Assembly (NCBI RefSeq): GCF_032062105.1
Contig: NW_026935864.1
Location: forward strand, 62,001 to 126,000
Origin: Saccostrea cucullata
Taxonomy: Eukaryota
Direction: 5' to 3'
Length of the DNA stretch: 64,000 bases
Shown: positions 12,107 to 12,535 of the stretch, piece by piece
How positions within the stretch are numbered: position 1 is the first letter of the stretch
Layout: each line of letters starts with the position of its first letter
Notes under the pieces: generated by a model
The model's input: the letters and a program-made list of their open reading frames with translations, nothing else
Told to the model about the DNA's origin: nothing
Database searches by the model: none
Made by a program: the position numbers and the translations under genes

Positions 12107-12535
12107 ATGGCAACGACGCTAGTCCTTGGATCTTCGGAGGGCAAGCACCTGTTCCCAAGCAACAAACCTTATGATTTTACCGTCACATTGCCAAAAACGT
12201 TGGTGTTAAAGTAGCAGTGGACACTAGAATTAAGTGAACTTTATATCACAACCCCTATCAAGACCACAAAGAAGGAGCTTTTCATCTACTGTGACGCATG
12301 CGACACGTCTGTGGTGGGTGAACAATACAGACCATTGCTGAGGCGTGTTGTTTTGGAATCCAGCAAAAATCACATCTTCACGAGACCGTACCCAGTTCTG
12401 ATGCGAATCCAAGAGTTGAAAAAGATACGCCTGGAAATAAAAGATAAAGATTATGAGCATGCCACCTTCTTGAATGGCGATATAAGCCTGACTCTGATAT
12501 TTCGACCCGCAGCCATGACCAGTTCCTTTGCCTAA
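12107..12535 (+). pseudogene. Polinton-type minor capsid protein (penton, single jelly-roll), ~142 codons, with one in-frame TAG at 12212-12214
   Basis: MATTLVLGSSEGKHLFPSNKPYDFTVTLPKTLVLK*QWTLELSELYI...LFIYCDACDTSVVGEQYRPLLRRV...PYPVLMRIQELKKIRLEIKD...TFLNGDISLTLIFR. This fits the Polinton PX pattern FPxNxPxxFxVxLP...W...E / YCD...VG....PLLR / IxIxD...F..G...LxF. TATAAA at 12062 and AATAAA at 12559. Confidence 0.75.

What the first reader, a model, noticed from the sequence alone, without database searches (positions are those of the whole stretch)
12107..12535. Hidden minimal penton (minor capsid) gene, only partly shown by the ORF track
Seen: extending ORF 12311-12535 upstream through one TAG reaches ATG 12107, downstream of a TATA box, giving ~142 codons. 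From recalled family motifs, the N-terminal (FPSNKPYDFTVTLP...W.L.LSE) and C-terminal (IYCD...VVGEQYRPLLR) conserved blocks of Polinton pentons are separated here by only ~12 residues, so the usual variable insertion is missing. Inference: a bare single jelly-roll kept without a major capsid could remodel helper capsid vertices or assembly.
Basis: partly seen in the sequence, partly recalled or inferred. Interest (0 to 1): 0.7.

Follow-up and report, generated by a model that had tools for sequence, protein, structure and literature searches.

The report
Capsid-less mini-Polinton keeping a penton gene
This is a broken copy of a predicted virus corner-protein (penton) gene in a small jumping element, in what is likely a bivalve genome; the element family has no main shell protein or polymerase, so it likely borrows both from larger viral elements in the same genome, and the gene's short length is ordinary.

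Summary
The ORF is real: 142 codons at 12107-12535, with one TAG that none of 17 sibling loci shares, so it is a nonsense mutation in this copy, not read-through. An open-frame sibling folds as a single jelly roll whose best matches are viral pentons (PBCV-1 Z 13.4, mavirus Z 11.1). The short size is not special: 33 of 36 full Polintons examined in this genome have 132-163-aa pentons beside a major capsid gene.

The context is the unusual part. The gene lies in a 5.6-kb element (AGTAGT ends, long inverted repeats, 6-bp target duplication) with only a penton, a zinc-finger packaging ATPase and an integrase; 14 independent insertions were found. It shares ends and integrase with a capsid-less, polymerase-bearing 12-kb sister family. 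Its penton forms a clade with pentons of two other small families that show no major capsid gene, under purifying selection between families (omega 0.24) but weaker within this one (0.52-0.57).

Best reading: a non-autonomous Polinton satellite whose penton likely works in helper capsids. Rival: a slowly decaying passenger. Vertex remodelling is untested.

The parts
11027..11032 (.). left target-site duplication (5 of 6 bases match the right one)
11033..12010 (+). left terminal inverted repeat: AGTAGT end, then about 99-bp subterminal repeats (inner border approximate); shared with the polymerase-bearing sister family E
12062..12067 (+). TATA box 45 bases before the penton ATG, conserved in sibling copies
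12107..12535 (+). short-type penton (minor capsid) gene, 142 codons, broken in this copy by a TAG at 12212-12214
12559..12564 (+). AATAAA, likely polyadenylation signal of the penton gene
12602..14233 (+). C2H2 zinc finger + proline-rich linker + A32-type packaging ATPase + second zinc finger, one 543-codon gene broken in this copy by a TAA at 13385-13387
13160..13310 (.). approximate crossover zone: identity to one family E copy is 73-85% to the left and 89-96% to the right
14437..15534 (+). rve integrase with chromodomain, 365 aa, open frame; 93-95% identical to family E integrases
15618..16653 (-). right terminal inverted repeat with subterminal repeats, ACTACT end (inner border approximate)
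16654..16659 (.). right target-site duplication

Best explanation
The ORF is a broken copy of a predicted short-type penton gene in a 5.6-kb Polinton-derived element family that has its own integrase and packaging ATPase but no polymerase, major capsid or protease, and that likely lives as a satellite: likely copied by the polymerase of a sister family with the same ends and likely packaged in the capsids of full Polintons, to which it would add its own penton and ATPase. Shown: gene content, ends, target duplications, shared ends and integrase with family E, penton clade without a capsid gene, purifying selection between families. Predicted: the fold. Inferred: replication by family E polymerase, use of helper capsids, and any role of the zinc fingers in picking the element's own DNA. 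This copy is dead (two genes broken).
For: Fold: pLDDT 94; top matches PBCV-1 6ncl_a6 (Z 13.4, rmsd 3.4, 138 aligned), mavirus penton (Z 11.1, rmsd 2.5, 123), a Sputnik chain (Z 10.9), Drosophila adintovirus 2 protein (TM 0.83). Homologues sit between integrase and major capsid gene in 36 of 40 diverged loci (capsid fold checked for one). Family A: 14 independent insertions, 12 with both ends, perfect 6-bp duplications in 10 of 12. Family E: 10 bounded copies, 11.2-12.7 kb (one 16.2 kb), same ends, polymerase, no penton, capsid or protease hit; integrase dS A-E 0.10, like within A (0.09). Pentons of families A, B, C and four metagenome proteins form a clade (100/99) apart from 22 full-element pentons; no capsid hit at any A, B or C locus. 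dS between families 1.1-1.5 with dN/dS 0.14-0.19; ML omega 0.24 for four representatives, 2dlnL 67 against neutrality. The penton rides two different chassis (A with integrase; C without, with an ATPase of another subclade).
Against: Within family A the penton is only weakly constrained: omega 0.57 for 10 copies (2dlnL 4.5) and 0.52 for six, against 0.27 for ATPase, 0.21 for integrase and 0.13 for four full-element pentons. Family E and other zinc-finger-ATPase elements spread without any penton, and one C-type copy lacks it (L160). The neighbouring PW-position gene is decayed in family C. Three poly(A) RNA runs gave 15-26 reads of 11-13 million, on both strands: no sign of expression there.
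Confidence: 0.55

Rival explanations
1. Passenger: the penton came in by recombination or was left after deletion from a capsid-bearing Polinton, does nothing for the mini-element, and is slowly decaying while the element spreads inside the genome by its integrase and a helper polymerase.
For: Omega 0.52-0.57 within family A, about twice that of ATPase and integrase; penton broken in 6 of 14 insertions; sister families thrive without it; decayed PW-position gene in family C; family B loci are remnants.
Against: Omega within A is still below 1 (2dlnL 4.0-4.5; shifted and reverse frames give 1.9-2.3); post-insertion drift inflates these values; no capsid-bearing member of the clade in two genome searches; penton-before-integrase order is shared by A and by B remnants at dS about 1.1 (weak hits, E about 1e-4 to 1e-3).
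Confidence: 0.33
2. Interference: the penton is made to compete with or spoil the vertices of helper Polinton capsids, protecting the host cell or favouring the capsid-less elements, rather than to package the mini-element.
For: Same shown anatomy; the penton is 42-47% identical to its nearest full-element pentons, far enough to be a poor partner; one copy has inserted into the polymerase gene of a full Polinton.
Against: The element also keeps a selected packaging ATPase (omega 0.27), which fits packaging better than blocking; 1 of 11 insertions checked lies in a Polinton polymerase gene, so no targeting is shown.
Confidence: 0.08
3. Programmed read-through of the TAG, or a penton-only particle that replaces the major capsid.
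For: The frame is open on both sides of the TAG. Adenovirus penton bases can form small particles alone (recalled, no call).
Against: 0 of 17 sibling loci share the stop; the same copy has a second private stop in the ATPase and a mismatched target duplication. A 60-subunit shell of 142-aa domains is unlikely to hold 5.6 kb of double-stranded DNA (inference).
Confidence: 0.03

Closest known systems
Polintons/Mavericks (adintoviruses, Polintoviricetes) and their PX penton (PMC4028283; PMC8097293; bioRxiv 10.1101/697771; passages read)
   Same: (AGT)2 ends, long inverted repeats, 6-bp target duplication, rve integrase, A32/FtsK-type ATPase, single-jelly-roll penton.
   Different: 5.6 kb, three genes; no polymerase, major capsid, protease or PW gene; ATPase fused to two zinc fingers; penton lies before the ATPase and the integrase comes last.
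Capsid-less Polintons (PMC4028283, section 4 read: 13 of 72 without a recognisable capsid gene, nine of which also lost protease and ATPase)
   Same: Loss of the major capsid gene.
   Different: There the loss was read as concerted loss of the assembly genes; here ATPase and penton stay. That study removed elements under 10 kb (methods passage), so this family was outside its set. Its Table S1 was not read.
Polymerase-less but mobile butterfly and moth polintons (bioRxiv 10.1101/2025.02.07.637071, passages read)
   Same: Mobile without their own polymerase, with inverted repeats.
   Different: Those are reported as lacking polB with transposon cargo in its place or nearby; loss of the major capsid gene with a kept penton is not described in the passages read.
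Phage satellites such as P4, PICIs and PLEs, and transpovirons (recalled, not from a call)
   Same: Small element with integrase that would borrow a helper's capsid and bring its own packaging or assembly parts.
   Different: No shared genes; the helper would be an endogenous double-jelly-roll virus of an animal; the likeness is by analogy only.
Insert-less pentons of larger viruses: PBCV-1 chain 6ncl_a6 (167 residues), Singapore grouper iridovirus chain 8hif_y3 (139 residues), Drosophila-associated adintovirus 2 protein (161 aa)
   Same: Bare single jelly roll of similar size.
   Different: Encoded by viruses that have their own major capsid protein.

Membership tests
Polinton penton (PX, minor capsid protein) | Single jelly-roll fold closest to viral pentons | tested here: met
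   Model of an open-frame sibling, pLDDT 94; the top seven VIA matches are capsid or penton chains of double-jelly-roll viruses and adenovirus, Z 8.3-13.4
Polinton penton (PX, minor capsid protein) | Homologues lie one gene from the major capsid gene in full elements | tested here: met
   36 of 40 diverged loci have a capsid gene just downstream of the penton homologue; capsid fold checked for L095; position as in PMC4028283 and PMC8097293
Polinton penton (PX, minor capsid protein) | Homology to long (insert-bearing) Polinton pentons | tested here: met
   Profile hits both ends of a 325-aa penton, E 6e-10 and 1e-11, about 173 residues apart; hhalign probability 97% for the N-terminal block
Polinton penton (PX, minor capsid protein) | Forms pentamers at capsid vertices | not tested
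   No complex prediction was obtained; the tool takes at most four copies
Autonomous Polinton/Maverick | (AGT)2 ends, inverted repeats, 6-bp target duplication | tested here: met
Autonomous Polinton/Maverick | rve integrase | tested here: met
   PF00665 E 2e-10 and chromodomain, both above cut-off
Autonomous Polinton/Maverick | Packaging ATPase | tested here: met
   PF04665 at the cut-off; Walker motifs visible; groups with Polinton ATPases; broken in this copy
Autonomous Polinton/Maverick | Protein-primed DNA polymerase | tested here: not met
   No ORF or hit between the ends of the element
Autonomous Polinton/Maverick | Major capsid protein and maturation protease | tested here: not met
   Profiles built from this genome's full elements hit 37 (capsid) and 32 (protease) of 134 stretches, none in the window or in families A, B, C, E
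Helper-dependent satellite | Spreads without its own replication and capsid genes | tested here: met
   14 independent insertions with the same three-gene plan; 10 of 12 bounded ones have perfect target duplications
Helper-dependent satellite | Carried genes under selection after loss of the capsid gene | tested here: inconclusive
   Integrase and ATPase yes (omega 0.21, 0.27); penton 0.24 between families but 0.52-0.57 within family A
Helper-dependent satellite | Packaged in helper particles | not testable with these tools
   Needs particle sequencing

The most novel reading that the evidence does not exclude
Bivalve genomes hold a layered system of Polinton satellites: an old clan of capsid-less elements marked by a zinc-finger packaging ATPase, some with a polymerase and some having captured a penton from another Polinton lineage, that replicate together and redirect helper capsids through their own vertex protein and motor, an animal counterpart of capsid-hijacking phage satellites.
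Probability: 0.3. Interest if true: 0.8.

Novelty: new variant of a known kind. Interest (0 to 1): 0.5.

Why it matters
Polinton particles had not been observed according to the papers read (PMC8097293; bioRxiv 10.1101/2023.08.22.554363). A small element that keeps a vertex protein and a packaging motor but no shell only gains from them if helper particles are made, so it would be indirect evidence for such particles and a marker to look for in them. Two surveys read here exclude such elements by design (under 10 kb removed in PMC4028283; capsid gene and 10-50 kb required in PMC11131425), and the zinc-finger ATPase occurs in at least nine bivalve genera, so the clan may be widespread and overlooked. 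The short penton by itself is ordinary.

Tried and rejected
Pfam and PDB sequence searches gave nothing for the penton, single or as a profile, nor PDB for the capsid profile. The protein atlas could not be used. Scans for the penton's DNA context elsewhere failed: one weak 33-residue hit in metagenome contigs, none in viral contigs, so the neighbours of the metagenome relatives are unknown. No complex prediction was obtained, so pentamer formation is open. RNA: background-level reads in three raw runs and scattered short contigs in a fourth that may be DNA; small word shares were not used as evidence. No inverted repeats or target duplications were found around family B or the lone pentons L101, L110, L122, so penton-only elements are not claimed. 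Targeted insertion into full Polintons rejected: 1 of 11. Read-through rejected. The label PZ in my scripts was wrong by the gene order in PMC8097293; that gene is at the PW position. Earlier-findings look-ups by words and by sequence were empty.

Full report
Observation. The reading frame from ATG 12107 to TAA 12535 has 142 codons and one in-frame TAG at 12212-12214. A TATAAA lies 45 bases upstream and an AATAAA 24 bases downstream; the TATAAA is in all six family copies listed. One of 500 shuffles gave a comparable one-stop ORF. The spacer between the two conserved blocks is 15 residues. A DNA search of the window's own genome gave 28 matches (a lower bound). None of the 17 close sibling loci has a stop at codon 36, so the TAG is damage private to this copy. 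The ATPase gene of the same copy has its own stop.

Fold. An open-frame sibling, aligned with 114 relatives, folds at pLDDT 94 as an all-beta domain. Foldseek's best PDB match is PBCV-1 chain 6ncl_a6 (E 2e-4, the only one under 0.001), with the mavirus penton third. VIA-align ranks 6ncl_a6 (Z 13.4, rmsd 3.4, 138 aligned), mavirus penton (11.1, 2.5, 123), another PBCV-1 chain (11.1), a Sputnik chain (10.9), an adenovirus chain (10.5), an EhV-201 chain (9.2) and an iridovirus chain (8.3) above all other rows. The best viral model is a 161-aa protein of Drosophila-associated adintovirus 2 (TM 0.83). Sequence searches of Pfam and PDB found nothing. That 6ncl_a6 and the Sputnik, adenovirus and iridovirus chains are pentons is recalled; only the mavirus entry says so in its title.

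Short size is ordinary. A protein search of the genome gave 88 matches. I fetched 40 of the 50 loci not already seen; the ten left out include one 56%-identical fragment. In 36 of 40 the homologue lies in a full Polinton between the integrase and a major capsid gene, mostly with one gene at the PW position in between. One such capsid gene was folded and matches double-jelly-roll capsids (E 2e-14). In 33 of these 36 the penton frame is open and 132-163 aa long. Among database representatives, 707 match at E <= 0.001 and 117 of the best 150 are 120-165 aa. The query favours short relatives: a high-copy family in this genome has a 325-aa penton with an insertion of about 173 residues (one copy examined).

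The element. The gene lies in a 5,621-bp element at 11033-16653 with AGTAGT and ACTACT ends, about 1-kb inverted repeats built of 99-bp units, and a 6-bp target duplication matching at 5 of 6 bases. It has three genes: penton, a 543-codon zinc finger + proline-rich + A32-type ATPase + zinc finger fusion, and an rve integrase with chromodomain. After merging duplicate loci with the same flanks, this family (A) has 14 independent insertions; 12 have both ends located (3.7-5.6 kb, one 7.3 kb with an insertion) and 10 of those 12 have perfect duplications, two of them counting an extra AGT at one end. The penton frame is fully open in 8 of 14. Capsid and protease profiles hit 37 and 32 of 134 stretches, all in full elements.

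Where the parts come from. Searches with the ATPase and integrase found a sister family (E) with 93-95% identical integrase, 81-84% identical ATPase core and the same ends. Ten bounded copies are 11.2-12.7 kb (one 16.2 kb), eight with perfect duplications; they carry a protein-primed polymerase and no penton, capsid or protease hit. Identity between the window element and one E copy rises from 73-85% to 89-96% near 13160-13310, and integrase dS between A and E (0.10) is like that within A (0.09) or E (0.09), while ATPase-core dS is 0.74. So A and E exchanged the right arm recently, and the penton, first zinc finger and front of the ATPase form an older, A-specific left arm. In the ATPase tree (47 of 49 chosen rows; quick method) 26 rows from elements without a capsid hit, those whose N-terminus was read having a zinc-finger fusion, form a group (support 80; two subgroups 99 each) next to the long-penton family, with a long-branch warning. 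In the penton tree (48 rows) families A, B, C and four metagenome proteins form a clade (100/99) inside a larger group with the L092-L096 full elements (99/96), whose ATPases lie far from A's. This suggests, without a root or a formal test, that penton and ATPase came from different Polinton lineages. Family C (3.2-3.4 kb) has penton, a broken PW-position gene and an ATPase of the other subgroup, no integrase. Family B loci are remnants with a penton followed by a scrap of integrase (weak hits).

Selection. Between families, dS is 1.06-1.50 and dN/dS 0.14-0.19; ML omega is 0.24 for four representatives (2dlnL 67) and 0.34 for all 13 A, B, C copies (2dlnL 52). Within A it is 0.57 for ten copies (2dlnL 4.5) and 0.52 for six, against 0.27 for ATPase and 0.21 for integrase in six copies each (one copy differs for the integrase), and 0.13 for four full-element pentons. 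Control frames give 1.9 and 2.3. Copies with frameshifts were left out of these sets. The penton is therefore conserved over long times but less constrained than its neighbours in the recent spread. Poly(A) RNA from three raw runs gave 15-26 reads of 11-13 million on both strands, no sign of expression in those samples.

Mechanism. Shown: a mobile family without polymerase, shell or protease. Inferred: protein-primed copying by family E polymerase, which shares the ends; integration by its own integrase; packaging into shells of full Polintons, with its own ATPase, perhaps guided by the zinc fingers to the terminal repeats, and its own penton at the vertices. I put this at 0.55, a decaying passenger at 0.33, interference at 0.08. 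The main gap is that a capsid-bearing donor outside this assembly could explain the deep selection; two genome searches found none, and scans for context elsewhere failed.

What is known. Polinton pentons and their position were described in PMC4028283 (passages and section 4 read), gene order and ends in PMC8097293 (passages), adintoviruses in bioRxiv 10.1101/697771 (passages). Capsid-less Polintons are known, mostly with ATPase and protease lost too; polymerase-less mobile ones are reported in bioRxiv 10.1101/2025.02.07.637071 (passages). Passages of PMC11131425, PMC11161782, PMC6431247, PMC10294476, PMC10680173, bioRxiv 10.1101/2023.08.22.554363 and 10.64898/2026.10.13.758929 described no capsid-less, penton-keeping family. 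Eight full-text searches listed none by title or abstract start. The library lacks most subscription papers and Repbase, and no supplements were read; Table S1 of PMC4028283 could hold such cases above 10 kb. The host is likely a bivalve, judged from named relatives of the ATPase fusion; three unchecked earlier notes on this genome also call it a likely oyster with Polintons.

Verdict. Observation confirmed; interpretation partly supported. The penton is a normal short-type one and this copy is dead. The family plan, and the capsid-less clan around it, look like a new variant of a known kind. Interest 0.5; the satellite-system reading has probability 0.3 and would deserve 0.8.

Noticed in passing
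L132-L139, L142, L144, L147 with L172-L182: Family E: 11-13 kb capsid-less Polintons with zinc-finger gene, polymerase, zinc-finger polyglutamine ATPase and integrase; same ends as the window element.
   Followed up: yes
L049/L050, L051/L052, L058/L059 (family C): 3.2-3.4 kb elements with penton, a broken PW-position gene and a zinc-finger ATPase, no integrase; 6-bp duplications perfect in 2 of 3.
   Followed up: partly
L140-L164: Further zinc-finger-ATPase elements with varying polymerase and integrase content, none with a capsid hit in the DNA fetched; several are not fully bounded. 354 database proteins match the fusion at E <= 1e-40, some named from nine bivalve genera.
   Followed up: partly
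L035:3183-8038 (same insertion as L036): A family A copy sits inside the polymerase gene of the high-copy, long-penton Polinton family.
   Followed up: partly
L157:2804-7006: A 4.2-kb palindromic element, integrase-ATPase duplicated head to head, with a 6-bp duplication.
   Followed up: no
P0019, P0105 (also P0024, P0025 by length and match pattern): 389-467 aa database proteins that look like a short penton domain followed by a long penton in tandem.
   Followed up: no
P0033: A public oyster gene model named LAMP1-like begins with 65 residues of a family B type penton: exon capture or misannotation.
   Followed up: no
L101, L110, L122: Lone short pentons with no other Polinton gene or inverted repeat within the 10 kb fetched; L101 has an open 145-aa frame on a long branch.
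   Followed up: partly
window 47561-49375 and 58921-61045: Two Mab-21 (cGAS-like receptor) genes in split frames, about 82-88% alike, 11.5 kb apart.
   Followed up: partly
window 38981-42615 and 42983-46606: Near-identical tandem duplication of about 4 kb, possibly an assembly artefact.
   Followed up: no
window 9742-10867 and 62396-63540: Arrays of about 166-168 bp repeats, like the helitron-related satellites of oysters (recalled).
   Followed up: no
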